In this document: in pieces, positions 12,613 through 30,320 of the stretch | How positions within the stretch are numbered: position 1 is the stretch's first letter | Layout of the letters: each line of letters opens with the position of its first letter | Source: a virus | Lineage: Duplodnaviria > Caudoviricetes | Reading direction: 5' to 3' (one strand) | Virus record (IMG/VR): IMGVR_UViG_3300033067_001303 | Coordinates: 1-55,906 of that record | DNA: 55,906 bases | The notes under the pieces: model-generated | Database searches by the model: none | Told to the model about the DNA's origin: nothing | What the model saw: only the letters and a program-made list of their open reading frames with translations | Made by a program: the position numbers and the translations under genes

Positions 12613-12613
12613 T

Positions 12614-15600
12614 ATGAGTAAAGATATACAAAATTTAGATAATCTTTTTGGAATTACTTCAGGAGAGCCTAAAAAAAATAAAGAAGTAAATATTAAAAAA
12701 AATAATGATATTGAAAATTTAAATAACATTTTTGGTATTAATGAAGATATTTCTAAAAAAGTAGATAATAAATATAATACTTCTTTTGATAAAGCACAAT
12801 TAAACTTAAATACAGATTTAACAAATAGAGATTATATTTCTGAATACGACGATCCTTTTAATACAGATAACGGATTAACTGATTTAAATGAACTTCGTGC
12901 AAATAGACAAAGTTGGGAATCAAAAGCAACTACTGGATTAGGTCGTGTAGGAGTTAAAGTTGTTGCTGAAGTTGCTAAAATGCCAGGAATGATCGGTGGT
13001 GCAATAGCAGCACCTTTTGCTGAAGAAGGTGAAGGTTGGGATACATTTGTAAATAATTCATGGATTAAAACAATTAATCAAATGAATGAAGATATAAATT
13101 CTGAAGCTTTACCTGTGTATGTAAAAAAAGCTGTTAGTGAAGGAAATCTATGGGACAATATTAGTTCTATAGATTTCTGGGCTACAGATGGAGCAGATGG
13201 TATTGGATATATAGCTTCTATGATGGTTCCTGGAGCAGTATTAAAAGGTTTAGGTGCTGGTAAATATCTTTCACAATTACGTGGTTTAAAAGGTGTTATA
13301 AGTGCTCAAAAAGCAGATGTTATTACTGCAACTGTTGCTAATACATTATTTGAAGCAGGTGCTGAAGCAGGTAATGCTATGGAAAATTTTCAAAAAGATA
13401 TGGATACTAAATTAGCTAATGGTGAAATTAGTCCAGAGCAATATGAAGAAATGAAATTACAAAAAGCTAGATTAGGTAGAGATATATTTTTATCTAATGC
13501 TGTAATTTTAGCCGGACCAAATGCTTTACAAGCTAATATGTTATGGGGTAAAGGTATTAATAAAACAATGTCTAAATTAGTAGATGGTGGTGATGGTGTT
13601 TTAGCTAAAACAGTAGTTGAACCTAAACTATATCAAAAAGTTTTAAATAGAACCGGTGATGTTTTAAAAGCAACTGGTTCTGAAGGACTTTGGGAAGAAG
13701 GTATGCAGATGTCAGTTGAAAACATGTTTACTAAATCTGCTAAAAAAGGTCAGTTAACAGATAATCCTTTTAATGATTTTAATATTTCAGAATTAGGTGA
13801 TTCGTATTTAGATACAATATCGTCAACAGAAGGACAAAAAGCCATGTTTCTTGGAGCGTTTTTAGGTGGTGGTATGCAAGCATATAGTGGTGCTAAAACA
13901 GATATTGCTGATAGAAAATCTACACAATCTTTATTAGATGCTGGTAATAATGCAATTGATGCTTTTTATAAAACAATGCAAAAAGATGTTTACAATAAAG
14001 ATGGTAAAATAAATTCTGAAAAAGCTAAAGAAAAATTTGAAGCTTTTGGTAGAGTTGAACAACTTAATATTATGTACAATCAAGCTGTTCAAAAACAAGA
14101 TAAAGAAGCTTTAGAAAAACTTAGAGATTTAGCTGCTACTCAATTAGCTTATGGTTTTATAATGAATGAAGATTTAGGTCTTGAAGTATTACAAGAACAT
14201 TTAAATGCTTCTTCACAATTTGATGAAATTGTTCAACGTGAACAAGAAGCTGGTAATAAAACATCTAAAAAAGATATTATAGATAATGTAATGTCTAAAG
14301 CTAAAGTTTTAGAAAAAGCTTATCGTAATTTTAATGACTTTGCACCTTCATTAGTTAATCCTACATTAAATGAAAATCAAACTCAAGAAGATATTGTAAA
14401 TTTTACAAATACTTTAAGAGGTAATTATATTAGTAATAAAGCTAATATTAATTTAAATAAAAACACATTATCTGAGTTAAAAAAGAAACGTCAAAACATA
14501 TTAGAAGATTTAGATTTAAATTCAGAACTTGTAGTAGGTGATGAAACAATTCAAGAACAAGAACAAAATGATGAAAGATTAAAACAAGTTACAGAAGATA
14601 TTAAAGAAGTTGAAACTAATTTAAATCGTCTTAAAAAACTTGATAGAAATTTTTGGAATACAGAACATATTCAAAAAGCATTTAATCGTTCTACTAAAGA
14701 AAAGAAACAACTTGAAAAAGAAACATCTTCAGAAGTTGTAGAAAATAATGATGCTGTTCTTGAACAAATTAATAATACTACATCACATAAAGAATTAGAT
14801 GATATTAAATCAGATAATAAAATTATTCAAAATAAAATACAAGATAGAAAAAAAGAACTTCAAGAAGAAGAACTTGTAAAACGTGAAGCTGAAATACAAT
14901 CTCAAAAAGAATCTGAAAATTTAGAAAACGAAACTAATAGTTTAGATTTAGATTTATTAAAAGAGAATTCTAAAGATTTAAAAAAAGGTGAAACTATTGT
15001 AAATCCTATAACTGGAGAAATTGAAACAGTTGAAGATATTACAAAAAATTCAATTACGTTAAACGGTAAAACTTATGAATTTGAACCTGAATTATCTGAT
15101 AATAATTCTTCTTCTGATATAGAAATTAAATCAATCAATGCTGTACCAGAAGGTACTTCTAAAACAGATGCTAAAACACCTGGAGTTGGTAATAAAGAAT
15201 ATACAGATTATTTACAAGAAATTAGAGATAAAAAAGGTGATGTTGTTACATTTGAATTAAATTTAAATAATTTAAATAATGAAACTAGAAAAGCTATAGA
15301 AATGTATAATGCTGGTAAAATATCAGAAAATAGAGATTTTTTAATTAATAATTTACCTATTACATTTATATATAATGGTAAAGTAAAATCTTTTTCAGCA
15401 TTTCCAAGTAAACATCCATCTGCTTTAATTTTTAGAACAAATGTAATAGATGTTTTAAGTCAAGGTTATAAATTAGAAGATTTATCAACAATTGTTTCAA
15501 ATCAAGAAGTTGCTGATTTTAATAATAAAAAAGATGCTGAAGGTAATCCTTTAAAAAATAATGTATTAGATATTGATTATGTTAAAAATGAATTAACTAA

Positions 15601-17686
15601 AGATACTTCTAAATTAACATTATATCATATTAATAAAAATGGTCAACCTGTTTTAGTTACAGACGCTAAAGATACTTTAGATGTTTCAATTAAATCAAGA
15701 TTAGAAAATCAAAAAGGTCAAATATTTTTAGTAATTAAAAATTATAAAGGTGATAACATTCCTGTAAAATTAAATTTTAATAGATTAGATAATGTTAAAG
15801 CATCTTCATTAGCTAGATTATATTCTGAAGTTTTAAAAAATCAAGATTTGTTAAATCAACCTTTAAAAGCTTTGAGTCTAAATGAAGAAACTAAAGATTT
15901 ATATGATGAATTAATTAAAATATTTGAATCAGAACTTAAATTAATAAATAAATCTAATCCACAATTAACAAATGTTAATGAACTAATTGAAGTATTAGTT
16001 TTTGAAAATAGTTTTAATGATAAAAAGATTATTAGAAAATTAGATAATGATAAAAATCCTTATATTGAATATAATAATAAAGAATATTATTTAAATTCAG
16101 TTGAAGAAATTGAAGAATTAGCTAATGATTTACGATCTAAGTTCCACAATGTAATAACTATTACTACAGATCAAAATGTTAATAAATCATTAAACTTTCA
16201 AAATCCTGATTATTTAAAATACTTATTTGAAAACAAAATTTTAACTACAGATTTAGATACTGAAAATGGTTCATTTGTTGTAACATCTGGTAATGGTAAA
16301 CAAGGTTCTGAATTATGGATTGATAGTTCAATAGTTGTTAAAAATCAAAAACCTTCTAAACCAACAACAACTTCTAAACCTCAACAATCTAATATAGAAG
16401 CTAAAATAAAAGAAGTTATAAATAATAAAAATTTTATAAAACTTTCTGAAGATGGAACACATTATATAAATACAAAAACTGGTAAAAAATATAAAAGAGT
16501 TTCTAATTTTATATCTAATGATGAAGAAGTAGATTCTAACAATTCTTTAATTCAGTCAAGTTTAACAATAGGTACAAAAGTTGATGAATTAGTTAGAGAT
16601 TTTTTTGCAGATGAATTAAAAGATTTAAAAGAATATAATGTATCAGATATTGAAACAGTATCTAAATTTTTAGAACAACTTACAGTTATTAAAACAAACT
16701 TTAAAAATAGAGATGAAACTGTTTTAGCGAATGATATTATTTTATACAATGATGAAATAGGTGTTGCAGGAACTGTCGATTTACTTACTTATGATAATCA
16801 AGGTAATGTTCGTATTTATGATATGAAAACAATGAGAGGTGATAATTTTAATCAATATTATAACGAGGATTCTTTTAATAAATATGAATCTACCAGATAT
16901 GGTAAATCTAAAAAAGAAAAACATTCAGAGCAAATATCTTTATATAGAATTCTTTTAAATAATACTCACGGATTAAAAGCCAAAACAATAGGTGTAATGC
17001 CTATTGAAATATCTTATTCACCAGGTGATACAACAACAACTGTATTAAATTTGTTAAAAGGTGTACAATTACCATTATTAGATAAAGTTAAAACTGCAGA
17101 ACTAAAAGTATTAGAAAGTGAAAATAATTTAGAAAATAATGTTCAAACTAAAGAATCATTTATTGAAGAAAAATTACAACCTTTTAAAGATAAAATTAAA
17201 GAAATTATTAAAGGTTTAGAAGCTGATGAAAGTGTTAAAGGTCCTTTTTATGGAGTAGGTTCTAAATTAGGTAATATGATTAAACTTACTACAGAAGTAG
17301 AATATACACAAGAAGGTATTATTGTAAATGGTGCGTTAATGCCTTATAAACAGTTATTTTCAGATGTATATGGAAAAAGTTTAGAAAATATTTGGAATTC
17401 TCAAAAAAATTCCGTATCTTTGCAAGACAAACCTAAAATAGTAAATAAAATGGACGTTAAAGGTACTGAGGAAAATAAAGAATTAAATCAAGCATATAAA
17501 GATTTAACTGAAAATGATCTTTCTAAAAAACAAAAAGAACTTTCTGATGTTTTAGAAAAAAATCAAAAAGCTTTATCTTCAAGTAAGAATGAAATTTTAA
17601 ATAAAAGATTAGAAGATATTATTTCAAAAACACAAACTGAATTAAATAGTGTTGTTGAAGAAATTAAAAAACGTAAAACATGTTAA
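12614..17686 (+). CDS. Giant virion cargo protein with glycine-rich hydrophobic N-region, coiled coils and a C-proximal PD-(D/E)xK nuclease-like domain
   Basis: 1690 aa; GVAGTVDLL...IYDMKT...HSEQISLY at ~16760-16945; directly upstream of the RNAP gene. Confidence 0.68.
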   Translation: MSKDIQNLDNLFGITSGEPKKNKEVNIKKNNDIENLNNIFGINEDISKKVDNKYNTSFDKAQLNLNTDLTNRDYISEYDDPFNTDNGLTDLNELRANRQSWESKATTGLGRVGVKVVAEVAKMPGMIGGAIAAPFAEEGEGWDTFVNNSWIKTINQMNEDINSEALPVYVKKAVSEGNLWDNISSIDFWATDGADGIGYIASMMVPGAVLKGLGAGKYLSQLRGLKGVISAQKADVITATVANTLFEAGAEAGNAMENFQKDMDTKLANGEISPEQYEEMKLQKARLGRDIFLSNAVILAGPNALQANMLWGKGINKTMSKLVDGGDGVLAKTVVEPKLYQKVLNRTGDVLKATGSEGLWEEGMQMSVENMFTKSAKKGQLTDNPFNDFNISELGDSYLDTISSTEGQKAMFLGAFLGGGMQAYSGAKTDIADRKSTQSLLDAGNNAIDAFYKTMQKDVYNKDGKINSEKAKEKFEAFGRVEQLNIMYNQAVQKQDKEALEKLRDLAATQLAYGFIMNEDLGLEVLQEHLNASSQFDEIVQREQEAGNKTSKKDIIDNVMSKAKVLEKAYRNFNDFAPSLVNPTLNENQTQEDIVNFTNTLRGNYISNKANINLNKNTLSELKKKRQNILEDLDLNSELVVGDETIQEQEQNDERLKQVTEDIKEVETNLNRLKKLDRNFWNTEHIQKAFNRSTKEKKQLEKETSSEVVENNDAVLEQINNTTSHKELDDIKSDNKIIQNKIQDRKKELQEEELVKREAEIQSQKESENLENETNSLDLDLLKENSKDLKKGETIVNPITGEIETVEDITKNSITLNGKTYEFEPELSDNNSSSDIEIKSINAVPEGTSKTDAKTPGVGNKEYTDYLQEIRDKKGDVVTFELNLNNLNNETRKAIEMYNAGKISENRDFLINNLPITFIYNGKVKSFSAFPSKHPSALIFRTNVIDVLSQGYKLEDLSTIVSNQEVADFNNKKDAEGNPLKNNVLDIDYVKNELTKDTSKLTLYHINKNGQPVLVTDAKDTLDVSIKSRLENQKGQIFLVIKNYKGDNIPVKLNFNRLDNVKASSLARLYSEVLKNQDLLNQPLKALSLNEETKDLYDELIKIFESELKLINKSNPQLTNVNELIEVLVFENSFNDKKIIRKLDNDKNPYIEYNNKEYYLNSVEEIEELANDLRSKFHNVITITTDQNVNKSLNFQNPDYLKYLFENKILTTDLDTENGSFVVTSGNGKQGSELWIDSSIVVKNQKPSKPTTTSKPQQSNIEAKIKEVINNKNFIKLSEDGTHYINTKTGKKYKRVSNFISNDEEVDSNNSLIQSSLTIGTKVDELVRDFFADELKDLKEYNVSDIETVSKFLEQLTVIKTNFKNRDETVLANDIILYNDEIGVAGTVDLLTYDNQGNVRIYDMKTMRGDNFNQYYNEDSFNKYESTRYGKSKKEKHSEQISLYRILLNNTHGLKAKTIGVMPIEISYSPGDTTTTVLNLLKGVQLPLLDKVKTAELKVLESENNLENNVQTKESFIEEKLQPFKDKIKEIIKGLEADESVKGPFYGVGSKLGNMIKLTTEVEYTQEGIIVNGALMPYKQLFSDVYGKSLENIWNSQKNSVSLQDKPKIVNKMDVKGTEENKELNQAYKDLTENDLSKKQKELSDVLEKNQKALSSSKNEILNKRLEDIISKTQTELNSVVEEIKKRKTC
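17391..17422 (+). promoter_or_regulatory. Intragenic promoter TTTGGAAT-N16-TATCTTTG upstream of the RNAP gene
   Basis: Near-perfect match to the window's promoter consensus, including the TCTCA spacer start. Confidence 0.65.
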
Positions 17687-17689
17687 ACA

Positions 17690-20600
17690 ATGAGTTGTAA
17701 ATTAATAACAAACGGTAGAGAATCTATACTACATAAAAAATTAATTGACAAATTTAAACAACCAGCAGCAGATTTCAAATTATCTGAATTTGAGTCTGCT
17801 GTTTTTTTAGAAGAATTTGGAGATTATTTAACACTTATGGAAAATGAATCAGATTTTATACCTGAATCATTTAAAGGAAGATTAAATGAATATAGAGAAC
17901 CAGAATTATTTGATGATAATATTGGTACTTATTATATTGATAAAAATTATAATAAACAGTATTTAGATATTAAATCTTCTGAACTATATAATATCTTTAA
18001 ATCTCAAAAAGCAATTAATACTTTAACAGAATTAACAGCTTCTAATTATATTAATGAAGGGGGTTTTAATTTAGATTTTGAATCATTAGAACTAAATAAT
18101 AATGAATCTGATTTATCATTAAATCAATCTATAAAAACTTATTTAGAATCATTAGGTAATGAATTAATTTTAAATGAAAATGATACATTATTTACAAATG
18201 GTGTTGCATTATTAAATATTTTAGAAAATCAAGAAGCTTTAATAGAACTTGAAAATAAAATAAAAGATTTTTTTAAATCTAGAAAATTAGAATATAATGA
18301 AGAATTAAATGATGAAGATTTAGATTTATCTGAAGATGAAGTGAGAGATGTAGGTTTTCAAAAAGCATCTTTTCAAGTTAATACTAAAAGTAAAGTTAGA
18401 GCAGGTGTAAAATTAAGATTATCTTTAATAAAAGATCCTTCTAAATTAGATAATGATTTTGCACAACCACAACCTATTGATTACAATTCATTATATAATA
18501 AACTTACAGCATTGTTAAAAAATAATCCTGTAATGTTTGATGAAAATGGTAATGTAGTAGATCAATTTACTTCAATGATTCATGAATTAGAAAAACATTC
18601 TTCTAATATTAAATATTTACCTATATTAGTAGATTATTTAAAAAATGTAAACAAGTTAGACTTACCAATTTCTACAAATGAAGGTATTCTTTTACATAAT
18701 TTTAAAGCAGGATTTGTAAATGCTTTCAATCTTCAAAAAAATAATTTCGGTACAAAACAATTAATAACTAAAGAAATTGTTGTTTCAAAAGCTGAGTATC
18801 AAGATATTTTAGATGATGATGGTAGTATTAAACGTAAAAAGAAAATTAAAGATGAAGTTAAAGGTTTAGAATATAAATATGAATCTTTTGATGCTACTAA
18901 GGAAACTAACGTAAGAAAAGATATTGTTAACAACTGGTCATTATTATTAAAAGATAATTTTGGATTAACCGAAGATGTTACAAGTGTAATGTCTGAAGAA
19001 AATCGTAAAAAATGGTTAGATGTTAAAAATAAATTAGAATCTTTAAAAAATAATACACAACATTCTGCTAAAACAAAAGCTTTAAATATTAAAGATAGAT
19101 TATTACCTTCATTAGGTATTATTATATCTGACGAGGCTTTTAATTATTCAATGAATGATTTTAAAACAGAATCAGAAGATTATAATCAATTAAATAAAAA
19201 CTATAATACATTTGTTGAAAATACTTTTAAGTTATTTGAAAATTTAATAAGTAACCATCAAAATAATATTTCATTATTTAACAATTATAGTTATAATAAA
19301 ATTGCAGATGCTGAAGCTTTTTATATGGAAGATGGTTCAGAGTCATCAATTTATACTGCTGGTAAAGCAGGTAAGATGACATCTAAATATATGTATTCAA
19401 ATCCATCTAATTTACATAATCAAATAAATGCTTGGAAAAAAGATAGAAATCAATTATTAAGAGAATATGAAAATTTAAATTCTTGGGAAAAAGAATCTCA
19501 ATTATATAAATATCTTTTAGCATTAGATGTTAATGTTAATCAGCGTGAAAAAGAAAGTATTAAAAGAATTGAAGAATTTGAAATAAGACATTTTAATTCT
19601 TTCTTAGATAAATCTAATCCTAAAGCTAAACAAAAAGATGGTTCGTCTGTAAGTGAGTCTGAATACGTAAAAGATACAGTAAACGGTATCTTAGCATCAC
19701 AAAGTTCTAATAATGCGTTAGGAGCCATTAGAACAACTACAGCACCTGGTAAAGCTACACAATATGAACTAGTTCATAAAATGTTTATTGATAGTAAATT
19801 AACTCAAATTAATGGTCAATACATTACAGATGTACCAAGAGGAATGCTGAGAGATTATTTACAAGCTGAATTTGTAAGAATGGATGAACAATTTAAATAT
19901 TTATCAAGTGGTGAAAATTTAGATATTTATTATCATACAAATAAAAAGGGTGAAACTTTAAAAAATGGTAAACTAATAGGTAATGCTTTTAAATCACAAT
20001 TATTTCCAGGTTTAGATTTTAATAATTTTGATAAAAATATTGATTTATTTTATAAAGATAAACAACCTATTTTATTATATAATGAAAATGGTTCAATAAA
20101 TTTAGAGAATTTAGAAATTTATGAACAAAAGATATTAGACTATATCGATAAAAGTATAATTGAAAAAGTACAACAATTAGAAAAAGATTTATTAAAATAT
20201 AATATAATTGAAAAATCTGGTCAAAATACTTATACAAATAAAGGTATAGATACTAGAGTTTGGTTAAAATATTCACAAAATCCTCAAACAATAAGTAGTG
20301 AAAATTTAAGTAGATTATTAGGTGATATTTTCTTAAATGGTCTTGTGAATCATATTGAATATTCTAAAATGTTTGCAGGAGATGTGGCTTATTACAAAGA
20401 TCCTGTGGATTATATTAAACGTATTGGAGCAACATATAGTGATGGTATTTATGAATATTTATCTGAAATAAATAAAGATTTTAAAGTAGCTGTAGTGGAT
20501 GCTGTTGAGTATAGAGAACCTTATTTAGAACTATTAAAACCTATTATTAAAGGTAATGAAGAATTATTGAGATCTTGGAATGAAGAAGTTAATGCTGCAG

Positions 20601-21922
20601 ATGCTCAAGCTTGGATTACACCTAAAAGATGGAAATCTATATTATTAGGTGTTAGTAAATTTACACCAGCACATGAAGTAGTTTATAAAAAACTAACTGG
20701 TAAAATTCAAGAACCTTTAGAAGATTATGAATTAAAATTAGTAGCACAACCTTTAAAAGGTACTTATTTCGGACGTACACCTAAAGGTAAACCTGTATTT
20801 TTAAAGTATTCTCAAGCTGTATTAATACCTCAACTTGTTATTAACACTCCTTTAAATGATATGATTGATTTAATGAAAGTTAATAAGATTGATGAATTAT
20901 TAACATTTGATGCTATTAAAGCAGGTTCAATACAGACAACAAAAATACACACAGAAGAAGGTAAATTAAATGTTAAAGATTCTAATGGTGATTATTTAAA
21001 ATTAAATAAAATGGTTTTAAATTCTAAAGGTTGGAAACTTCAACAAGATTTACCTACCAAAACATTTAAAGAAACAGATATTGGTTCTCAAATTTTAAAA
21101 AATATGTTATTATTAATTTCAGATAAAATTAAATCAACTGAAAAAGTATTTGAATATAATAATGAAACATATACGGCTGAAGAATTTGCAAAACTTTTAG
21201 ATACTACACTAGGTCAATTAATTGAAAAAGGATATCAAGATTTATTAAAAGAATTCGATATCGATTCTGAAACAGGTGTAATTAATAATTTTGATAAATT
21301 TTATAACACATTAGCTGACGAGTTAGTATCTCGTGATGTTAGTGATGAAATTGTTAAATCATTACGTGCAGGTTTAAGTATTTATGCATTACCTGGATTA
21401 AAAGATAAACTTGATAATATTTTTGCATCTATTGTAAATGATAGAACTGTTAAAATTAAAACTAATGGTGGTTCTTTTATTCAAATGTCAAACTTTGGAT
21501 TATCTAAAGAAGAAGCAGATAGCAAATATAATGGTATTAAATGGTCTCCTGAATTAAATTTAGGAGATACTACAAAACCTTATAGTTATGTTTTAGATGA
21601 AAATGGAGAACCTAAAAAAAATATATTTGGTGAAGAAATTATTGCACCAGAACAAATATTAATATCTAGTTCATTTATTGCTAAATATATTCCTGATTAT
21701 CAAACAAAAACATCTGAAGATTTATTTGGACATACTAACGATAAAGGTAAATTTATACCAGGTTTAATTGATTCAAAAATACTTGAAAATATTATTGGTT
21801 ATCGTATTCCTAATCAAGGACCATCATCTAACGGAGCTTTAAAAATTGTAGGTATATTACCTGCAGGTATGGGAGATACAGTTGTAGCATTTACAGGTAT
21901 TACTAAAAAAACAGGGTCTGAT
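17690..21922 (+). CDS. Virion DNA-dependent RNA polymerase (crAss-like, phi14:2 gp66-type), exon 1
   Basis: Motifs DYIKR, DAQAW, QPLKG, FLKYS, GYRIPNQG; ends ...KKTGSD at the 5' splice site. Confidence 0.88.
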
Positions 21923-22880
21923 AAAATATCACTGTTTGACCCTGTATAAAAAATAAAAACATTGTTAATTGCTGGAAACTCTTAAAGCTTTGTAAACTAC
22001 AACGCAACTTGAAAAAGTAATCGTGAATGTTTAAAAATTACAAAGATGGCGAATAGACAATCAGCAGCTGAATTCCTAAGGTGAAATACTAAGGAAAGAG
22101 TTCAACGACTAACACTCAACAAATAGTTCCCTATATGGGTAACACAAACAAAATCATATGAAAACAAAATTTAATAAAGAATCAAGAAATTTACTTATTT
22201 CTATGTTGTTAGGTGACGGAACAATATCTAACAACAACGTGTTTAAACTTTCACACGGATATAAACAAAAAGAATACTTAGAATGGAAAATAAATCTTTT
22301 AAATGAATACGGTATAAAAAATAATGGTTTAAAAGAATATGTTTCAACTAAAGGATATAATACAGGAGATATTGTATATTATTCTCAATTAAGTATAATA
22401 CCTTTTATAAAATTATTACGAAGAATTATCTATAAACCTAAAAAAAATTATGCTAATCGTAAAATTTTAAACAGATTAAATGCTTTAGGTGTAGCTATTT
22501 GGTACATGGATGATGGTCATATCAATATTAGAAAAACAAATGATAAAATTCACGGATTTTATGTAAAAATAGCAACTTGTTTATCAAAAGAAAATAATCA
22601 AATAATAATTGATTATTTTAAAGAAGTTTGGAATGTTTCTTTTTATCAGTTTAAAGAAGGAAAAGAAACGTACTCTTTGTGTTGTGGAACACAAGAGGGA
22701 ATTAAATTTATAGAAATAGTAAAACCTTATATAGAATCTTGTCCGTCGATGATATATAAAATACAATATGATTTGAGTCAACGTAAAGATTACGTTGAGT
22801 AGGAAAAATCCGAAACACAATGCCTCACAATAGTGAGTGAAGATATAGTCTAGTCTTATGTGAAAACATAAGTATAAACG
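21923..22880 (+). mobile_element. Group I intron (IA-like) in the RNAP catalytic motif
   Basis: P AATTGCTGGAAA, Q AATCAGCAG, R GTTCAACGACTA (22100), S AAGATATAGTCT; P1 with U.G at 21922/21934; P10 AATATCA/TGATATT; terminal G at 22880; splicing restores GSD|FDIDK in frame. Confidence 0.93.
22158..22802 (+). CDS. Intron-encoded LAGLIDADG homing endonuclease
   Basis: Two motifs, LISMLLGDG and AIWYMDDG. Confidence 0.9.
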   Translation: MKTKFNKESRNLLISMLLGDGTISNNNVFKLSHGYKQKEYLEWKINLLNEYGIKNNGLKEYVSTKGYNTGDIVYYSQLSIIPFIKLLRRIIYKPKKNYANRKILNRLNALGVAIWYMDDGHINIRKTNDKIHGFYVKIATCLSKENNQIIIDYFKEVWNVSFYQFKEGKETYSLCCGTQEGIKFIEIVKPYIESCPSMIYKIQYDLSQRKDYVE

Positions 22881-25592
22881 TTTGATATTGATAAGATGTA
22901 TATTATGTTTCCAAATTATAAAAAAATTAATAATAATCTTAAATATGTACCAGCTGAAAATGATTCTAAAGAATCAATTCAAAATAAAGTAATTGAGTTA
23001 TATAAAACTTTAATATTACAAAAAGATAACATTAAAAAAATTATGACACCTTTAGATCATCCTCATATTAAACAAGAGGCTCAAAACTTAGCACCAGCTA
23101 AAACTAAAGGTGATTTAGACAATTTTGAATTTATTCAAGACATTCAAACAAAATATTCATTTCTTGCAGGTTTAGCAGGTGTTGGTCAAGAAGCTAATAC
23201 TTCATCTGATTATGCAATGGGTACAATGTCTAATGTATATTATGAATCTGTAAATGTTGGTCCAAGATCACATCAAGGTGAAAGTTTTAAAAAAGAAATT
23301 ACTAAGAAGAATGGAGAGTCTTCAATTATTGATGAAACACTTACAAAATTTGATGAAATTAATACAATTACAATTACTGAAAGTGAATTAAAAGAATGGG
23401 TTAGCTCTTTTAATAAACAAGCTAAAAAAAACGGTTTAGATGAAATATCTTTTGAAGATGTAAAACATTATACTTCTTTTCCTATTTCAGATAGTATTTC
23501 AGCGTTAATGAATGCTTTTGTGGATATTGCAAAAGATCCATATATTACAAATATTAACTGGAACATGATGACAACTAACACTGGTAACATGTTACTTAGA
23601 GCAGGTGTTCATCCTTTTATAGTAACATCATTTTTAGCACAACCTATTATAAAAGAATATATTGATTTTGTTAGTACATATGAATCTAATAGAAAAGCAG
23701 ACCAAATATCTAATACTAAAGATGCTTTTAGAGTTTATAAAGTTGGAGAATTAATTAAAGATAAAACATTTATTATTAGTCAATTTGAAAGTGGTGAAAA
23801 CGCTGAAATAAATTATAAAACTTTTTATAATATTGTAGCTAAAAATACATTTGATTTAGAAAGTCTTGGAGAAAAATCTTTTACTAACACATATGTTTTA
23901 AAAGAAATTAAATCTCAATTAGGATTGCCTGAATCACATCAGTTTACAGAAAAAGATTTAAATAACATAAAAACAATTTCTAAAGAAATTATAAAACAAC
24001 ATTATTTATTTTTTAAAACTAAAGATTTTGTTGATTTTAGAATTAATGATAATCTTGGAAAGTTAAGAAATAATGTTTTTGAAAATAATCCATCATATCA
24101 AGCAGATATATTTGTTGACTTTTTAACATTTCAAGGATTTGCTAAAAAAGTAAAAGCTTCTGTAGATGCTTCTAAACATAGTGTTAACGGTATAGGTAAA
24201 AATACAACATCGTTATTAATAGCTATAAATAAAGTAAAAGATGTTCAAGATAAAGGTGTTATTAATTATAATACTAAAATGGAATATCCTGACGGAACTA
24301 AAAAAGTTTTAGGTTACAATTATGATAACTTATTAAATACAGCTAAAATAGTTCAAGCAAACCCTTTAATGTTTGTAGGAGCTTCTCAACATGTGTGGAA
24401 TGCTTTTAATAGTATATCGGTAAACATCTATGGTGATTATTTACAAAATGATGAACTTGGTAATAAATTAGATGCATTCTTTAAAAATTATTTAATGTCA
24501 GGATTTGATCCTTTAAATATATCTTCTAAAGAGAAAAGGGATTTAATTGAAAATTTACCTAAAGAATTTATTGAATTTAAAAGAAAACATTCTAAAGAAT
24601 ATAAAATTCTTGAAGAATTAAAAATTAATACATCACAAGGTAAATCTTTTATTGGTTTAACTAATAAATCTAATTCAAAAGAATTTACAGATCAAATGAT
24701 TAATTCTTGGAGAGAAATGATGGAATTTTATCCTGAGTTTAGTAAAAAATTAATTCAATATTCATTTATTAATTCAGGTTTTAATCCTACAACTACTAGT
24801 TTTTATCAATATATTCCACCAAGTTTCTTTTTTCAAAATAATTTTAATGGATATGTTAAAAAGTTTAATAATAAATTTACAGATAAATCTGTTGATTTAA
24901 ATTTTGTAGATCAGTTTTATTTATCTAATCTTAAAGATAGTCAAATTGTAAAATTTGTAAGTTCTAATAAAAAGATGAAAGATCAACCTTATTTAAAAGG
25001 TGGTGTTACATTATTTAGTAAAGATGTTACAAAAAAATTCATTAATGTAAGTAATGTGTTTTATAAAAGATTAGGTGTTAATTCTAAAGGTGAAAATATG
25101 TACACAGAATATTTACAAACATCTGAAGGTTTTGTTAAAATTAAACCATTAGTTTCAGAATTAGATAAAAACATTAAAGTGTTTAACATTAATGCTAATG
25201 AATTATCTTTAGAAAGTGATAACAAGTTATCTGAAGAACATAAAACGTTCTTAAAAGGTGTTTATAATGCATTTACATATGATACAAATAAAACAACTGT
25301 AAATGAAGATGAATTTGGTCAAGAAGATAATGTAGAAACATCTGATTTAAATAATAATATTATAGAAACTAAACAAGAAATTAAATCTGAAGTTAGTAAT
25401 ATAATTGAACCACAACAATTATCTTTATTTAATAACTTGCAAGAATCTAAAATAATATTAGGTTTAAAAGAAATGTTTAATAACGGTTTAATGTTAAATA
25501 AATTTAACGAATCAGGAATAAATAATGTAGATGATTTAAATAAATTGTCTGAAGATGAATTAGGAGAATTATTAAAAAAAATATGTAAATAA
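22881..25592 (+). CDS. Virion RNA polymerase, exon 2
   Basis: Begins FDIDKMY in frame with the ORF at 22896; NAFVDIAKDP motif; spliced product 1411+903 = 2314 aa. Confidence 0.88.
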   Translation, partial: FDIDKMYIMFPNYKKINNNLKYVPAENDSKESIQNKVIELYKTLILQKDNIKKIMTPLDHPHIKQEAQNLAPAKTKGDLDNFEFIQDIQTKYSFLAGLAGVGQEANTSSDYAMGTMSNVYYESVNVGPRSHQGESFKKEITKKNGESSIIDETLTKFDEINTITITESELKEWVSSFNKQAKKNGLDEISFEDVKHYTSFPISDSISALMNAFVDIAKDPYITNINWNMMTTNTGNMLLRAGVHPFIVTSFLAQPIIKEYIDFVSTYESNRKADQISNTKDAFRVYKVGELIKDKTFIISQFESGENAEINYKTFYNIVAKNTFDLESLGEKSFTNTYVLKEIKSQLGLPESHQFTEKDLNNIKTISKEIIKQHYLFFKTKDFVDFRINDNLGKLRNNVFENNPSYQADIFVDFLTFQGFAKKVKASVDASKHSVNGIGKNTTSLLIAINKVKDVQDKGVINYNTKMEYPDGTKKVLGYNYDNLLNTAKIVQANPLMFVGASQHVWNAFNSISVNIYGDYLQNDELGNKLDAFFKNYLMSGFDPLNISSKEKRDLIENLPKEFIEFKRKHSKEYKILEELKINTSQGKSFIGLTNKSNSKEFTDQMINSWREMMEFYPEFSKKLIQYSFINSGFNPTTTSFYQYIPPSFFFQNNFNGYVKKFNNKFTDKSVDLNFVDQFYLSNLKDSQIVKFVSSNKKMKDQPYLKGGVTLFSKDVTKKFINVSNVFYKRLGVNSKGENMYTEYLQTSEGFVKIKPLVSELDKNIKVFNINANELSLESDNKLSEEHKTFLKGVYNAFTYDTNKTTVNEDEFGQEDNVETSDLNNNIIETKQEIKSEVSNIIEPQQLSLFNNLQESKIILGLKEMFNNGLMLNKFNESGINNVDDLNKLSEDELGELLKKICK

Positions 25593-26086
25593 TGGATAAA
25601 TCAAATTTATTAAGTAAAAAAATTGTAGATACTTTAAACTACAGAATACAACAAGAAGATTATTCTTCAAGATTATATGAACAATTATCATTATGGTTAA
25701 ATGATAATGGTTATTTAAACACTTCTTTATTGTATAAAAGATATGCAAGTGAAGAATCTAATCATGCTAATTGGGCAAAATCATTCTTATTAGATTATGG
25801 TGTAACACCATGTCTTATGAAACTAGAATCTCCAGAAATGGAGATATCTGGTTTAAAAGATGTATTTGAAGTTACATTAGAACATGAATTAGATATTACA
25901 AGACAATGTGAAGAATTAGCTACAACAGCATTAAAAGAAGGTAATCATGTATTATATGCGTTAGCTTCTAAATATTGTGCAGAACAACAAGAAGAAATTG
26001 GTAAAGCAATTACTAATTTAGACATTTTAAAATTAAGTACTGACATGTTGATTATTGATCATTATGTCGGAGATAAATTATTATAA
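25592..26086 (+). CDS. Ferritin-like protein
   Basis: 164 aa; LNxRIxxExxSSxLY, EExxHA, LEHE, EQxEE ferroxidase-type pattern. Confidence 0.85.
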   Translation: MDKSNLLSKKIVDTLNYRIQQEDYSSRLYEQLSLWLNDNGYLNTSLLYKRYASEESNHANWAKSFLLDYGVTPCLMKLESPEMEISGLKDVFEVTLEHELDITRQCEELATTALKEGNHVLYALASKYCAEQQEEIGKAITNLDILKLSTDMLIIDHYVGDKLL

Positions 26087-26089
26087 TAT

Positions 26090-29000
26090 ATGAGTATATC
26101 TTGTCCAAATAAGCGCTTAAAAATATGGAAAGATTTAGTTCAACAGGTAGGTGAAAATAAAGCCTACCTGCTTTGGGCTGAATATGGTGGTAATGTACCT
26201 GATAATTATTATAAAAATGAAGTTGTTTTAAATAATGAAATTGAATCTACTGTTTTTTCTAAAGAAGTAGATTTTACAGATGTTATTGATAATTCACAAC
26301 CTGAAATATTTAATCAATCTAAAGCTGAACTACAAATTGTTAAAACTGAAAATCAAAACAAACAATTATTATTTGGTGAAAATAATTCTAATACTATTGA
26401 AGCTTCTGTAGTATTAACTAATTTGATTAAAAGTGATGTGTTTGATAAAATCAAAGAAGGTGATTTCTTTTTAGAAAAAGCTTTTAATTTATTAAATAAA
26501 TCAGGAGCATCTTTAAAATTAATTGATAGTAATCATCCTTTTTATAAAAAGTTTGACAGTAAAACAGTTATGTTGTACGATGCTGTAACAAACGATATTT
26601 ATGTATCACAAGATTCTTTAGATAATTTTAGTCAATATGATATTGTAAGTGCTTTTATTCACGAAGTTGTACATAGTACTACTGTAAAAGCTTACTTTAA
26701 TCCTAAAACAATGGCTGAAAAAGATTTTAAAGAATTTATAGATAAATCTTTTGAACAATATAAATATTTAACTACTAAAAGAGATTCTGATGGTAATTTA
26801 ATGTATGGTTTTACAAATCAAGCTGAATTTATTGCTGAGATTTATTCTAATCCTGAATTTAGAAAAGAAATTCAAAGTATTGAAAAAAATTGGTTAGAAA
26901 AATTAATTGATGTTATTCGTAGAATGTTTGACATGTCTAAGAATATAATAAATCAAGAATTAATTCGTTCTACAGTTTTATTTAATAAAGTTGAAGAATT
27001 TGCTGAAAAAGACATGTCTAAATGGAAAGGAACTTTAGTTAGAGATCCAAGATATGAAAGATTTGGTACAACATTTTCTAAAGAAATTCAAAAACCTAGT
27101 AATGCAACATTAGAAGATAAACTTACAAATTTGTTAAATCAACAATTAAATAATGTTGAACAAATTATGAAAATGGCATTATCTGCTAATAAAAAATATG
27201 GTTCTAAAAATCAAGGTTTTGTAACTAAAGTTGAACAATTAAAAGATTCTTTAAAAGTTGCTCAAAAACTAGATAAACTTGAAGGAATTAATAATTATGC
27301 AGATTTTATGATTGAACAAGTTAATTTAATTTATAATAACTTGAAAAACAATACTAGCAAATTAGATAGTTTAGAAGCTATTGAAAAATATCAATCATAT
27401 TTAGGTGCTAGTGATTTATTAAAACCTATTATGGACACTTTAAATGATGTTCGTATTAATGAATTAGACTCTGAAAATAAAGAATTTGTACAAATTATTA
27501 AAAATAAACTTATTGAAATTTCAGGAAAACACGATGATGTTTTATCTAAATTTAAAAACTATAGAGTAGATAATTTAAGAAAAGAATTACGTTCATCATA
27601 TTATGTTGAAAAAGTAGTTAAAGATTTTAGAGATGAACTATCTAAAGAATATCCTAAAAATAGTAGTTTAAGTAAAAATGAATGGATAAATCAAGAAGTT
27701 TTAAATCGTCAAGAAGAATTAGATTCTCGTATAGATAAAGAATTAAATGAAGTTATTGATGGTATTGCACCTGATATTTCAGCATGGGACAAATGGATTT
27801 ATAGTACTTTAAATACTAAATCAAGGTTAATTCAATTAACTCAAAAGGTTATATCTAAAATGAAATCTAAAATAGATGAATTAATTAGAAATAATGATTT
27901 CAAACTTAAAAAGTTAAATGATGATTTAATTACTGAAAAAGGTTCTTATAATATATCTAATTTATTAGAAACCGATTCTAATGGTGAAACGTTTTTAAAA
28001 GGTAAGTATTCATTAGAATTTAGAAATAAATATATAAACGAATATTCTAAATATTTAGATGAATTATCTGAAGTTACATCAAAGTTAAACAAAGAAGGTA
28101 AATCAACTTTAAATAACCCAGACGTAACAGAAATTAATAAAAAATTAAAAAATTGGTTAGATACAAATACTAAAACAATAAAGGGTCAAAAAATACCTAT
28201 TGATAAATATTTAACAAATATGAAATTATCTAAAGCTGAACAAGCAATATATGATGAATATATAAAATTAGCTAAAAATAGTGAAAAAGTATTTGGAAAA
28301 TCAGGTTCATTAATTAAAAAAAGTTTAGGTATTACTTATTATTCATTACCTTATAAAACAATTTCAGGATTAGAAAGAGTAATAACAGGTAAAGTAAATG
28401 TTGTAGATACATTAAAACAGAAAAAATCTGAATTTTTAGATTGGAAAATTGATGATATTGATCAATATGAAAAAATGTACGATTCTTCAGGTACACAAAT
28501 ATTTAATATACCTGTAATGTTTAGAAATAATTTAGATAAAGATTCTAAAGAATATAAACAGTCACTTAAAGAACAATCTTTAGATTTATTAACATTAATG
28601 AGATTAGAACATTTTAATCAAACTAATTTTAAAGTAAAATCTGAAAATGAAATGTTACTTAATACTATTGTAGATATTAGTAAAGAAAAAGATTATGTTA
28701 AAACTGAAGCTGGTACAAATAATTTAATATCTAATTTATTTGGAGTTCAAACTAAATATGTTACATTTAAAGGTATTGAGTCTAATGAGTATAAAAGATT
28801 ACAAAGTATTATTCAACAATCTTTATATAATGTATTTAAAGAAGAAGGTGTTAAGATAGCAGGTAAAGATTCTAATAAAATTGTACAATCTGTAAATAAA
28901 CATACTTCGTTTTTAGGAATGTCTTTAAATTATTTTAACGCACCTGTCAATGTTTTAAATGGTGAATTTCAAACATTTTTATTACGTGTTGCTAAAGATA

Positions 29001-30262
29001 TTGATAAAGGTAATTTAAGAAGTGCACATATTGAATATTCTAAAGATTTAGCTAATATTGTTGCTGATACAGGAAGACCTGTTAAATTATCTAAAATTAA
29101 TCAGTTGAACAATATAATGGACATTTTTGGTGGTTTAACTCATGACCAACAAGATTTTATTAAAAATTCAATATTGAAAGGTGTTACAGACCCTCAAATG
29201 TTACAAATACTACAAAATGGTGGTGAACATTTAGTACAATCTGTTTTAAATATTGCTTTAATAAAATCTGTTAAAGTAATGAATGATAAAGGTCAATATA
29301 TTAATAAAGAAGGTAAAGTTGTTTCTGAAAAAGACTCAGCTTCTTTATATGATATGGTCGAACAAGATAAAGATACTAAACAGGTAACTATTAATAATAG
29401 TAAATTTGAATACACATCATTAAGTACTGTTACTAAATGGAAAGAAGGTGGTTTTGAAAACGTTCGTTTATATGTTAAAAAGAAGATTTTTGATACAATG
29501 GGTGAATATGATAAAAATTTTCAAAATGAAATTCAAAAACATTGGTGGGGGCAGCTTTTAATAATGTATAAAAAGTTCTTAATACCTTTAGGTTTAACAA
29601 GATATCGTGGTGGTGTAGCGTCTGCTTTTAAAAGTAAAGATAAATTAACTGAAGATGATAAACATTGGAATGAAGCATTACAACAATATGAAGAAGGTTA
29701 TTATATAACTACTGCTAGATTAGTTTTAGGAGGAATGTTTAATAACGGTATTGCTGGTGCTTTAAATAATTTAAAATATTCTATACTTAAAAGTAAATGG
29801 GAAGAATTGTCAGAATATGAAAAAGCTAATGTTAGAAAAGGTGTTACAGAACTAGGATTTTTAGTTTTAATGAACATGATATTATTACCATTACTTATGG
29901 GAATGGCTGGTGACGATGATGATGATTCATTATGGTATTTAGCAATGATGGGTCGTAGATTAGAACAAGAATTAGCACAATATACAGATATAGGTGATGC
30001 CTATAAAATTACAAGAAATCCAATTGCATCTTTAAATCTTATTGAAGATATGATTAATGTTAGTAAATTTACAATAACACCTACTGCTTGGTTTTCAGAA
30101 ACTAAAGATGGTGATTTAAGATTATATAAAGCATTAGAAAAAGTTGCAATTCCTTCAGCATTACGTCCTGATAGAGATTCCAAAACTATTTTAAGACATA
30201 TGAACAGAGAATTAATTAGACCATACGAAGATAGTATGTTCTACAAAATAATGAATGAATAA
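26090..30262 (+). CDS. Giant virion cargo protein with zincin (HExxH) metalloprotease motif
   Basis: FIHEVVH at ~26654-26674 followed by EFIAE; N-terminal CPN...W motif; hydrophobic C-terminal segments; crAss-like synteny. Confidence 0.75.
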   Translation: MSISCPNKRLKIWKDLVQQVGENKAYLLWAEYGGNVPDNYYKNEVVLNNEIESTVFSKEVDFTDVIDNSQPEIFNQSKAELQIVKTENQNKQLLFGENNSNTIEASVVLTNLIKSDVFDKIKEGDFFLEKAFNLLNKSGASLKLIDSNHPFYKKFDSKTVMLYDAVTNDIYVSQDSLDNFSQYDIVSAFIHEVVHSTTVKAYFNPKTMAEKDFKEFIDKSFEQYKYLTTKRDSDGNLMYGFTNQAEFIAEIYSNPEFRKEIQSIEKNWLEKLIDVIRRMFDMSKNIINQELIRSTVLFNKVEEFAEKDMSKWKGTLVRDPRYERFGTTFSKEIQKPSNATLEDKLTNLLNQQLNNVEQIMKMALSANKKYGSKNQGFVTKVEQLKDSLKVAQKLDKLEGINNYADFMIEQVNLIYNNLKNNTSKLDSLEAIEKYQSYLGASDLLKPIMDTLNDVRINELDSENKEFVQIIKNKLIEISGKHDDVLSKFKNYRVDNLRKELRSSYYVEKVVKDFRDELSKEYPKNSSLSKNEWINQEVLNRQEELDSRIDKELNEVIDGIAPDISAWDKWIYSTLNTKSRLIQLTQKVISKMKSKIDELIRNNDFKLKKLNDDLITEKGSYNISNLLETDSNGETFLKGKYSLEFRNKYINEYSKYLDELSEVTSKLNKEGKSTLNNPDVTEINKKLKNWLDTNTKTIKGQKIPIDKYLTNMKLSKAEQAIYDEYIKLAKNSEKVFGKSGSLIKKSLGITYYSLPYKTISGLERVITGKVNVVDTLKQKKSEFLDWKIDDIDQYEKMYDSSGTQIFNIPVMFRNNLDKDSKEYKQSLKEQSLDLLTLMRLEHFNQTNFKVKSENEMLLNTIVDISKEKDYVKTEAGTNNLISNLFGVQTKYVTFKGIESNEYKRLQSIIQQSLYNVFKEEGVKIAGKDSNKIVQSVNKHTSFLGMSLNYFNAPVNVLNGEFQTFLLRVAKDIDKGNLRSAHIEYSKDLANIVADTGRPVKLSKINQLNNIMDIFGGLTHDQQDFIKNSILKGVTDPQMLQILQNGGEHLVQSVLNIALIKSVKVMNDKGQYINKEGKVVSEKDSASLYDMVEQDKDTKQVTINNSKFEYTSLSTVTKWKEGGFENVRLYVKKKIFDTMGEYDKNFQNEIQKHWWGQLLIMYKKFLIPLGLTRYRGGVASAFKSKDKLTEDDKHWNEALQQYEEGYYITTARLVLGGMFNNGIAGALNNLKYSILKSKWEELSEYEKANVRKGVTELGFLVLMNMILLPLLMGMAGDDDDDSLWYLAMMGRRLEQELAQYTDIGDAYKITRNPIASLNLIEDMINVSKFTITPTAWFSETKDGDLRLYKALEKVAIPSALRPDRDSKTILRHMNRELIRPYEDSMFYKIMNE

Positions 30263-30269
30263 AGGGTCT

Positions 30270-30320
30270 AAAAAAAATGCCACTATAACTCAAACGAGTC
30301 GTAGTGGCATTTTTTGTTTT
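30270..30320. terminator. Bidirectional terminator at convergence of the two genome arms
   Basis: A-run, TGCCACTATAACTC-AAAC-GAGTCGTAGTGGCA, T-run. Confidence 0.88.

What the first reader, a model, noticed from the sequence alone, without database searches (positions are those of the whole stretch)
12614..30262. Cysteines only at the facing termini of the three giant ejected proteins: a possible head-to-tail covalent chain
Seen by reading the translations: the 1690-aa protein has one Cys, its last residue (KKRKTC, 17681). The spliced 2314-aa RNAP has two, at position 3 (MSCK, 17696) and next-to-last (KKICK, 25584). The 1390-aa zincin protein has one, at position 5 (MSISCPN, 26102). Cargo proteins 1 and 2 have none. 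So all four Cys in ~5400 residues sit at the ends that face each other in gene order, and the two outer ends have none. Inference: C-to-N disulfides (or shared metal sites) link the three proteins into an ordered chain. Such a chain could thread through the tail in sequence and be released in the reducing cytoplasm.
Basis: partly seen in the sequence, partly recalled or inferred. Interest (0 to 1): 0.78.

Follow-up and report, generated by a model that had tools for sequence, protein, structure and literature searches.

The report
Conserved end-cysteines on crAss ejected proteins
Three giant proteins that crAss-like phages carry in the virion and inject into the host have almost no cysteine except one at each end that faces the next protein; hundreds of relatives keep this pattern and lose it exactly where two proteins are fused, which suggests the proteins are tied head-to-tail into one chain.

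Summary
In the window, protein A (1690 aa) has one Cys, its last residue. The spliced virion RNA polymerase B (2314 aa) has Cys 3 and Cys 2313. The zincin protein C (1390 aa) has Cys 5 only. Both cargo proteins have none. About 73 Cys would be expected.

The pattern holds in database homologues:
- A: 109 of 111 have a Cys in the last 7 residues.
- Unfused B: 113 of 113 have an N-terminal Cys and 110 of 113 a C-terminal Cys.
- C: 42 of 43 have Cys at positions 3-5.
- Internal Cys: 18 in 516,974 residues.

It also holds in phi14:2, Fpv1, crAss001, crAss002, DAC15, IAS and three Suoliviridae. In crAss001, DAC15 and IAS, A lies on the opposite strand from B and C.

Natural fusions lose exactly the junction pair and keep the other pair. 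Two of three A+B+C fusions have no Cys at all. A complex model supports binding of the A C-terminus to the B N-terminus (0.65 against a best control of 0.17) and lists both Cys in the interface.

Best reading (0.6): head-to-tail inter-protein disulfides. Threading through the tail and release by reduction are inferred. I found no published description.

The parts
8543..10492 (+). Cargo protein 1 (649 aa), 0 Cys
   Evidence: Cys count. Pfam PF25725 crAss_CARG1, E 9.5e-20.
10492..12612 (+). Cargo protein 2-like (706 aa), 0 Cys
   Evidence: Its position matches phi14:2 g068 and crAss001 gp46. No family hit.
12614..17686 (+). Protein A (phi14:2 gp67 / crAss001 gp47-like, 1690 aa). Its single Cys is the last residue.
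17681..17683 (+). Cys codon of A (residue 1690, C-terminal)
   Evidence: Invariant column in alignment A2.
17690..21922 (+). Virion RNA polymerase B, exon 1 (1411 codons, ends ...TGSD). Cys 3 is at 17696-17698.
   Evidence: C3 invariant; PDB 6VR4, E 1.5e-124; exon end.
21923..22880 (+). Probable group I intron interrupting the DFDID catalytic motif. It contains a LAGLIDADG homing-endonuclease ORF at 22158-22802. Boundaries are good to a few bases.
   Evidence: RF00028 hits at 21962-22147 (36.2 bits) and 22774-22872 (28.4 bits), both below the gathering score of 50; phrog_11023, E 2.6e-22; exon junction.
22881..25592 (+). Virion RNA polymerase B, exon 2 (starts FDIDK...). Cys 2313 of 2314 is at 25584-25586.
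25592..26086 (+). Ferritin-like ORF (164 aa, 3 Cys) inserted between B and C. Not part of the Cys-poor set.
   Evidence: PF00210, E 5.6e-16; same position in 5 of 8 related loci.
26090..30262 (+). Protein C (phi14:2 gp65 / crAss001 gp49-like, 1390 aa), HEVVH at residues 191-195. Its single Cys is residue 5 (26102-26104).

Best explanation
A, the virion RNA polymerase B and the zincin protein C are the three large virion-packaged, injected proteins of a crAss-like phage. Selection has removed all cysteine from them except four connector residues: the C-terminus of A, both termini of B, and the N-terminus of C.

The C-terminal region of A docks on the N-terminal domain of B, and by analogy the C-terminus of B docks on C. 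Once the virion is outside the reducing cytoplasm, the apposed thiols oxidise to inter-protein disulfides. The result is a linear A-S-S-B-S-S-C chain, the redox-labile equivalent of the A+B, B+C and A+B+C polyproteins that other lineages encode.

The absence of any other Cys prevents wrong cross-links. Placing each Cys within a few residues of a chain end keeps the joint thin enough to pass the tail as a thread. In the host cytoplasm the disulfides would be reduced and the three proteins would separate.

Shown: the pattern, its conservation, and its loss in fusions. Modelled: A-B docking. Inferred: the disulfide chemistry, the timing of oxidation, threading, and reductive release.
For: 1. Window pattern and its improbability.

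2. Conservation in the 274 homologues, tallied:
- A: 109 of 111 have a Cys in the last 7 residues, 107 of 111 have only that Cys, and 0 of 111 have an N-terminal Cys.
- Unfused B: 113 of 113 have Cys at position 8 or earlier, 110 of 113 have Cys in the last 11 residues, and 103 of 113 have exactly those two.
- C: 42 of 43 have Cys at positions 3-5, 35 of 43 have only that Cys, and 0 of 43 have a C-terminal Cys.
- Internal Cys: 2, 8 and 8 in 185,944, 267,595 and 63,435 residues.

3. A second, independent sampling: 55 of 58 unfused full-length B carry both terminal Cys.

4. C3 of B and C1690 of A are invariant alignment columns, alongside the catalytic residues.

5. Nine named phages from Steigviridae, Intestiviridae, Suoliviridae and Fipvunavirus show the pattern. 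In crAss001, DAC15 and IAS virus, A is on the opposite strand from B and C.

6. Fusions:
- Seven B+C fusions and P0391 have no junction or C-terminal Cys.
- In loci L022, L024/L026 and L025, and in crAss002, the upstream A keeps its C-terminal Cys and the fusion keeps its N-terminal Cys.
- A+B fusions (Fpv1 gp33, P0362, P0375, cr1_1) have no junction Cys. In Fpv1 and the three Suoliviridae, where the neighbouring gene is held, the fusion's C-terminal Cys and the N-terminal Cys of C are both kept.
- Triple fusions P0356 (4714 aa) and P0369 (4726 aa) have no Cys at all.

7. Complex prediction with A 1521-1690 and B 1-260 gave a median score of 0.65 (runs 0.68, 0.61, 0.65) against a best control of 0.17. 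That mark was reached by 58 of 80 solved complexes and 2 of 110 mismatched pairs. The runs agree in at least 60% of contacts and the partner's pLDDT is at least 55. The interface list contains A residue 1690 and B residue 3. The PDB holds no solved relative of A or C.

8. The termini of recombinant gp66 are not ordered in the crystal. [quoted passage not shown]

9. Inter-subunit disulfides do exist in crAss001 virions, in the tail (PMC10172136, passages read).
Against: - No experiment shows a disulfide or a covalent A-B-C species. All of my evidence is comparative or modelled.
- The proteins are made and packaged in a reducing cytoplasm, so oxidation would have to occur inside the finished capsid. 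Gut crassviruses live in an anoxic habitat yet keep the Cys.
- The C-terminal motifs of A and B resemble each other (acidic stretch, K-K-x-C, often K). The N-terminal motifs of B and C are also alike. The Cys context alone therefore does not enforce the order A-B-C. Mixed products such as A-C or B-B are conceivable.
- Some A+B fusions keep a lone Cys near the junction: P0390 Cys 1569, P0371 Cys 1671 and P0367 Cys 2204. One triple fusion, P0370, has 10 internal Cys.
- Three of 113 unfused B (P0128, P0159, P0228), P0388, and one C (P0274) lack an expected Cys. I could not check whether these are truncated gene calls.
- The complex tool states that a pass supports binding but does not show it. 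It used my own alignments, and it does not report whether the two Cys touch each other.
Confidence: 0.6

Rival explanations
1. The facing termini are joined, but by a shared metal ion or another thiol-dependent bridge rather than a disulfide. One Cys from each protein contributes to the site.
For: The conservation and fusion-loss pattern would be identical. Acidic residues precede the C-terminal Cys and could supply extra ligands. The phage carries a ferritin-like gene between B and C.
Against: Each junction offers only two thiols. No conserved His or second Cys lies near any terminus. The residues flanking the Cys are mostly Lys, which is a poor metal environment.
Confidence: 0.12
2. Each terminal Cys acts on its own. 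It might tether the cargo to another virion component (portal, capsid interior, other cargo), or form homodimers or concatemers of the same protein, rather than joining A to B and B to C.
For: crAss001 virions contain many structural disulfides (PMC10172136). The similarity of the two C-terminal motifs and of the two N-terminal motifs would allow promiscuous pairing.
Against: - The outer ends of the set never carry a Cys: 0 of 111 A N-termini and 0 of 43 C C-termini.
- Fusions lose the two Cys of one junction together and keep the other two.
- Two triple fusions have no Cys, so any tether would be dispensable there.
- Cargo proteins 1 and 2 in this window have no Cys to pair with.
- The A-B docking model places both Cys in the interface.
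Confidence: 0.12
3. The Cys serve a transient step during assembly or activation rather than a stable link in the virion. Examples are a mixed disulfide or thiol chemistry during cargo loading, or a cysteine-switch that masks the zincin site of C.
For: C carries a conserved HExxH. The gp66 preprint proposes that the polymerase is held inactive before packaging and activated after injection, possibly by cleavage.
Against: B+C fusions keep the zincin domain and lack the Cys. Four Cys on three proteins with a strict end-to-end logic is more than one switch needs.
Confidence: 0.08
4. The pattern has no function. It would be leftover Cys tolerated at floppy ends, a start or stop annotation artefact, or a nucleotide-level signal at gene junctions.
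For: In the window, A, B and C are adjacent and the Cys codons lie within 15 bases of the gene boundaries.
Against: - The terminal Cys are invariant or nearly so across proteins that are only 25-35% identical.
- The pattern holds when A is on the other strand.
- It also holds when one or two genes are inserted between B and C.
Confidence: 0.01

Closest known systems
Cysteine suppression in the ejection operon of N4-like phages (Schitoviridae: giant vRNAP gp50/gp71, gp51/gp72, gp52/gp73)
   Same: These are also giant virion-packaged proteins injected through a short tail, and they are almost free of Cys. PMC11445570 (passages read) reports 0.00075% Cys in gp71 homologues against 0.865% in the proteomes. 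It cites the idea that passage through the disulfide-forming periplasm selects against Cys.
   Different: There the depletion is total and no conserved terminal Cys is described. Here four terminal Cys are kept as strictly as catalytic residues, and they are lost only when the proteins are fused.
Fused polyprotein forms of the crAss-like RNAP module
   Same: [quoted passage not shown] I found A+B, B+C and A+B+C forms in the same order.
   Different: The preprint assumes that the fusions are cleaved into components and does not mention cysteine (0 occurrences). My reading is that the split forms are re-joined through Cys, so that fused and split forms are equivalent chains.
Interchain disulfide of AB-type protein toxins (recalled from general knowledge, no call made)
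   Same: This is what the proposed system would work like. Two polypeptides are held by a single disulfide during membrane translocation and are separated by reduction in the target cytosol.
   Different: The proteins are unrelated, the delivery is through a phage tail, and the arrangement is a three-member end-to-end chain. No experimental disulfide has been shown here. This is an analogy, not membership.
Structural disulfides of the crAss001 virion (tail hubs, ring proteins, gp57 dimer)
   Same: Disulfides between separate polypeptides exist in purified crassvirus particles (PMC10172136, passages read).
   Different: Those are static links between tail and capsid parts that carry ordinary numbers of Cys. 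None involves the cargo proteins in the passages I read. I did not see Extended Data Table 2.

Membership tests
crAss-like virion RNA polymerase (phi14:2 gp66 type) | Sequence homology to the solved gp66 structure | tested here: met
   PDB 6VR4 chain A, E 1.5e-124, covering query residues 12-1411; tblastn hit to phi14:2 g066 at 35% identity.
crAss-like virion RNA polymerase (phi14:2 gp66 type) | DFDID catalytic motif | tested here: met
   ...TGSD | FDIDK... is restored across the intron; the F-D-I-D-K columns are at least 90% conserved.
crAss-like virion RNA polymerase (phi14:2 gp66 type) | Packaged in the virion and injected | not testable with these tools
   Known for phi14:2 and crAss001 from the preprint and PMC10172136. 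Inferred here by orthology.
Crassvirus cargo protein 1 | Pfam PF25725 above its curated cut-off | tested here: met
   71.5 bits against a cut-off of 27.
Zincin-like metalloprotease domain (protein C) | Conserved HExxH | tested here: met
   HEVVH at 191-195, with E192 and H195 present in 42 of 44 sequences. Pfam, PHROGs and PDB sequence searches found nothing. Catalysis was not tested.
Cys-free ejection proteins (N4-like kind) | Complete absence of Cys | tested here: not met
   Internal Cys are absent, but four terminal Cys are conserved.
Disulfide-linked translocated protein chains | A demonstrated interchain disulfide that is reduced after translocation | not testable with these tools
   Only indirect support: fusion-linked loss and the docking model.
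Group I intron with LAGLIDADG homing endonuclease | Rfam RF00028 at gathering score, and an endonuclease ORF inside | tested here: inconclusive
   no hit at gathering score; two partial hits at 36.2 and 28.4 bits (cut-off 50) flanking the ORF. LAGLIDADG phrog_11023, E 2.6e-22; the exons join in frame.

The most novel reading that the evidence does not exclude
Crassviruses inject their roughly 600-kDa early-transcription machinery as one covalent 'protein train'. A, the RNA polymerase and the zincin protein are concatenated end-to-end by two terminal disulfides, or by peptide bonds in the lineages with fusions. They pass the tail and envelope as a single thread, so entry or refolding of the leading protein can pull the next one in. 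The host's cytoplasmic thiol-reducing system then uncouples them. On this view evolution swaps a peptide bond and a terminal disulfide freely at the same two junctions, and the total purge of other Cys is what keeps the train linear.
Probability: 0.4. Interest if true: 0.9.

Novelty: new variant of a known kind. Interest (0 to 1): 0.82.

Why it matters
How podophages move megadalton protein cargo through a narrow tail, and in what order, is an open question. The crAss001 atlas says only that order is probably set by packing and mutual interactions (PMC10172136).

A conserved, redox-labile, end-to-end link would give a concrete physical mechanism for ordered, stoichiometric delivery of the polymerase module in the most abundant phages of the human gut and their marine relatives. 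It would also explain why these genes appear split in some lineages and fused in others.

It can be tested directly in two cultured systems, phi14:2 with Cellulophaga and crAss001 with Bacteroides, using a non-reducing gel and mass spectrometry.

It also refines the accepted explanation for Cys-free ejection proteins. The purge may protect designated linker thiols, and not only avoid periplasmic oxidation.

Tried and rejected
Nucleotide-level or gene-adjacency artefact: rejected. A is on the opposite strand from B and C in crAss001, DAC15 and IAS virus, and the Cys are still present. One or two extra genes lie between B and C in the window and in L030-L034 without any loss of the Cys.

Intramolecular B N-to-C pairing, or A-to-C pairing: rejected. 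A+B fusions lose the B N-terminal Cys and keep the B C-terminal Cys and the C N-terminal Cys. B+C fusions do the converse.

Cysteine-switch on the zincin as the sole explanation: unlikely. B+C fusions keep the zincin region and lack the Cys.

Hunts that failed:
- The loci of P0364, P0365 and P0393 were not found in viral, metagenome or genome contigs. Only relatives at 24-26% identity came back.
- The locus of triple fusion P0356 was not found. Only relatives at 22-29% identity came back.
- The prototype crAssphage record was not in the phage collection under two accessions.
- The published Nature version of the gp66 paper is not held, so only the preprint was read.

Not seen: supplementary files and extended-data tables. 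These include the crAss001 disulfide table and the mass-spectrometry coverage table. They could hold a remark on cargo cysteines or on terminal peptides.

Not in print, as far as I searched: searches, and 'find' look-ups in three papers, turned up no description of terminal Cys in crass cargo proteins.

The Rfam scan at gathering score found nothing in 12000-31000. The B C-terminus with C N-terminus docking model was not run because the complex cap is one job.


Full report
WHAT IS IN THE WINDOW. The window is a low-GC (about 22-29%) crAss-like phage segment. Its closest named relative is Cellulophaga phage phi14:2.

On the + strand lie a muzzle-like structural protein (3999-8414, phrog_28748), cargo protein 1 (8543-10492, Pfam crAss_CARG1) and a second cargo protein (10492-12612). 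Three giant proteins follow, which I call A, B and C.
- A (12614-17686, 1690 aa) is the counterpart of phi14:2 gp67 and crAss001 gp47.
- B is the virion RNA polymerase. It matches the solved gp66 structure 6VR4 at E 1.5e-124.
- C (26090-30262, 1390 aa) is the gp65/gp49 counterpart and has a conserved HExxH.

B is interrupted inside its DFDID catalytic motif by an insert of about 958 bases. The insert carries a LAGLIDADG endonuclease ORF and two sub-threshold group I intron matches. An uninterrupted homologue reads straight across the junction, so the spliced product is 2314 aa.

THE OBSERVATION.
- A has one Cys, its last residue.
- B has Cys 3 and Cys 2313 of 2314.
- C has Cys 5.
- Both cargo proteins have none.

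The remaining ORFs of at least 100 aa carry 1.36% Cys. That predicts about 73 Cys in A+B+C, and 4 are seen (P about 1.6e-26). Placing four Cys at random into the 20 facing terminal positions has P about 1.4e-10.

CONSERVATION. I searched the 5.8-billion-protein collection with A, with phi14:2 gp66 and with C, listed the Cys positions of every hit, and tallied them.

A search (118 hits). Seven hits are really C-like and carry Cys at positions 3-5. Of the other 111:
- 109 have a Cys within the last 7 residues.
- 107 have no other Cys.
- None has an N-terminal Cys.
- The two without a Cys are P0013 and P0109. P0013 comes from a 3.9-kb contig. P0109 is 982 aa and has a C-like tail.

B search (290 hits, best 120 listed). 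Seven are B+C fusions. Of the other 113:
- All 113 have Cys at position 8 or earlier.
- 110 have Cys in the last 11 residues.
- 103 have exactly those two.

C family (43 proteins):
- 42 have Cys at positions 3-5.
- 35 have only that Cys.
- None has a C-terminal Cys.

Internal Cys number 2, 8 and 8 in 185,944, 267,595 and 63,435 residues.

A separate exhaustive search of 1.84 billion representatives with the exon-2 protein found 408 hits, of which the best 150 were listed and 123 were new. Among the new ones:
- 55 of 58 unfused full-length B carry both terminal Cys.
- 45 of 53 shorter pieces carry the C-terminal Cys.

In alignments, C3 of B (69 sequences) and C1690 of A (45 sequences) are invariant columns alongside the catalytic residues. 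C5 of C is present in 43 of 44 sequences.

Environmental loci fetched for other reasons show the same pattern in every A, B or C gene that is whole in the locus. These are L002/L003, L011-L018 and L027.

NAMED PHAGES.
- phi14:2: gp67 has Cys 1797 of 1797, gp66 has Cys 3 and 2179 of 2180, and gp65 has Cys 3.
- crAss001: gp47 has Cys 2339 of 2341, gp50 has Cys 5, 1334 and 2404 of 2412, and gp49 has Cys 5.
- DAC15 and IAS virus behave likewise, with a few more internal Cys.

In these three gut phages, A is encoded on the strand opposite to B and C. The pattern therefore belongs to the proteins and not to gene junctions. The five loci where the ferritin-like gene separates B from C (with a second ORF as well in L032) make the same point.

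THE FUSION TEST. The gp66 preprint notes that some phages fuse the three proteins. I found all three kinds of fusion.

A+B fusions:
- Fpv1 gp33 (4401 aa), P0362 and P0375 each have a single Cys, next to the C-terminus.
- The Suoliviridae cr118_1, cr1_1 and cr6_1 keep the C-terminal Cys at three residues from the end.
- In Fpv1 and the three Suoliviridae the following C keeps Cys 3-5.

B+C fusions:
- P0173, P0198, P0212, P0220, P0229, P0238 and P0391 keep only the N-terminal Cys. P0187 has none.
- In their genomes (L022, L024/L026, L025, and crAss002) the upstream A keeps its lone C-terminal Cys.
- crAss002 gp33 appears to start at an internal Met that gives M-S-C.

A+B+C fusions:
- P0356 (4714 aa) and P0369 (4726 aa) contain no Cys at all.

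So the two Cys of a junction are lost together when that junction becomes a peptide bond, and the other junction's pair stays. This pattern excludes B N-to-C pairing and A-to-C pairing. It is hard to reconcile with four independent functions.

Exceptions, told in full:
- P0390, P0371 and P0367 keep one Cys near the A/B junction.
- cr118_1, IAS, DAC15 and crAss002 have several internal Cys.
- The triple fusion P0370 has ten internal Cys.

DOCKING MODEL. I ran complex prediction with A residues 1521-1690 and B residues 1-260, each with its family alignment. The median score was 0.65 (runs 0.68, 0.61, 0.65) against a best control of 0.17. That mark was reached by 58 of 80 solved complexes and 2 of 110 mismatched pairs. 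The runs agree in at least 60% of contacts, and the partner's pLDDT is at least 55.

The confident interface is a helix of A (1645-1672) packed on B residues 150-180. The list also includes A residue 1690 and B residue 3. The tool does not say whether these two residues touch each other, and it warns that a pass supports binding but does not show it. No relative of A or C has a solved structure, so the pass is unlikely to come from memory of a known complex.

MECHANISM. The most economical reading is that the facing termini are joined, most simply by disulfides. These would form after the particle leaves the reducing cytoplasm and give a linear A-B-C chain equivalent to the natural polyproteins.

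Two features fit a chain that must stay linear and thin. There is no other Cys, and each Cys lies within 0-7 residues of a chain end.

Passage through the tail as a thread and separation by cytoplasmic reduction are inferences. The crAss001 paper states only that cargo must partly unfold at constrictions narrower than 50 Å and that the order of exit probably depends on packing and mutual interactions.

Weak points:
- There is no direct chemistry.
- Assembly takes place in a reducing cytoplasm.
- Gut members live in an anoxic habitat.
- The motifs around the two C-terminal Cys are similar, as are those around the two N-terminal Cys, so the Cys context alone does not fix the order.

COMPARISON WITH WHAT IS KNOWN. 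Near-total Cys suppression in injected proteins is known for N4-like phages and is attributed to passage through the periplasm (PMC11445570). In those phages no terminal Cys are retained.

I found no paper that mentions cysteines in the crass cargo proteins, using searches. The crAss001 atlas has 0 occurrences of 'cysteine', and its disulfides concern tail and capsid parts. The gp66 preprint has 0 occurrences of 'cysteine', 'Cys' or 'disulfide'.

VERDICT. The proposed pairing of facing termini is supported by two independent kinds of natural fusion and by a docking model. The disulfide chemistry and the threading idea remain to be tested, and the test is simple.

Noticed in passing
window 21923-22880: A group I-like intron with a LAGLIDADG endonuclease splits the polymerase exactly inside the DFDID catalytic motif. 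Many database homologues are called as separate C-terminal ORFs starting at or just after this motif (for example M-F-D-I-D-K-M or M-Y-I-M-F-P). The same site therefore seems to be interrupted in many relatives.
   Followed up: partly
window 25592-26086; loci L030-L034: A ferritin-like gene (PF00210) sits between B and C here and in 5 of 8 related loci. In 4 of those 5 loci, C starts with a C-P-N-K-type leader like the window's. Two C proteins that are 91% and 93% identical to the window's (P0239, P0240) have different N-terminal leaders. The leader may be exchanged together with the inserted gene.
   Followed up: partly
proteins P0364, P0365, P0393: These are short proteins (778-869 aa) that match the C-terminal half of the polymerase. 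They carry a Cys at position 6 and another at the C-terminus, and they have an N-terminal stretch of about 80 residues that resembles the B leader. They could be a genuinely split polymerase with a new connector Cys. Their loci were not found.
   Followed up: partly
L006, L007, L021, L005, L008 (gut phages) versus L001, L002, L016-L018, L022-L026 (marine and environmental): Internal Cys depletion is absolute in the marine and environmental relatives. It is relaxed in several gut phages, for example 10 Cys in the IAS polymerase and 5 in DAC15's, while the terminal Cys stay. The difference in habitat oxygen is a possible reason. I did not test this.
   Followed up: no
L005 11586-24323 (crAss002 gp33): The annotated start is probably 32 codons too far upstream. 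An internal Met gives the family-typical M-S-C start.
   Followed up: partly
L010 (cr6_1): Under table 11 the A+B gene has 57 in-frame stops and C has 29, which points to a reassigned stop codon in this phage. The Cys counts for cr6_1 are therefore approximate.
   Followed up: no
window 12614-17686, residues about 1267-1534: Protein A carries a weak PD-(D/E)XK/exonuclease-like region (phrog_298 E 7.8e-10; Pfam PF12705 at 16.9 bits, below its cut-off of 22). This is the part shared with gut crassvirus gp47-type proteins.
   Followed up: no
window 30786-31490 (-), 31494-32285 (-), 33565-34425 (-): On the minus strand lie ThyX (PF02511, E 1e-30), a metallophosphatase (PF00149) and a spore-photoproduct-lyase-like radical SAM protein (PF20903, E 4.1e-20).
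   Followed up: no
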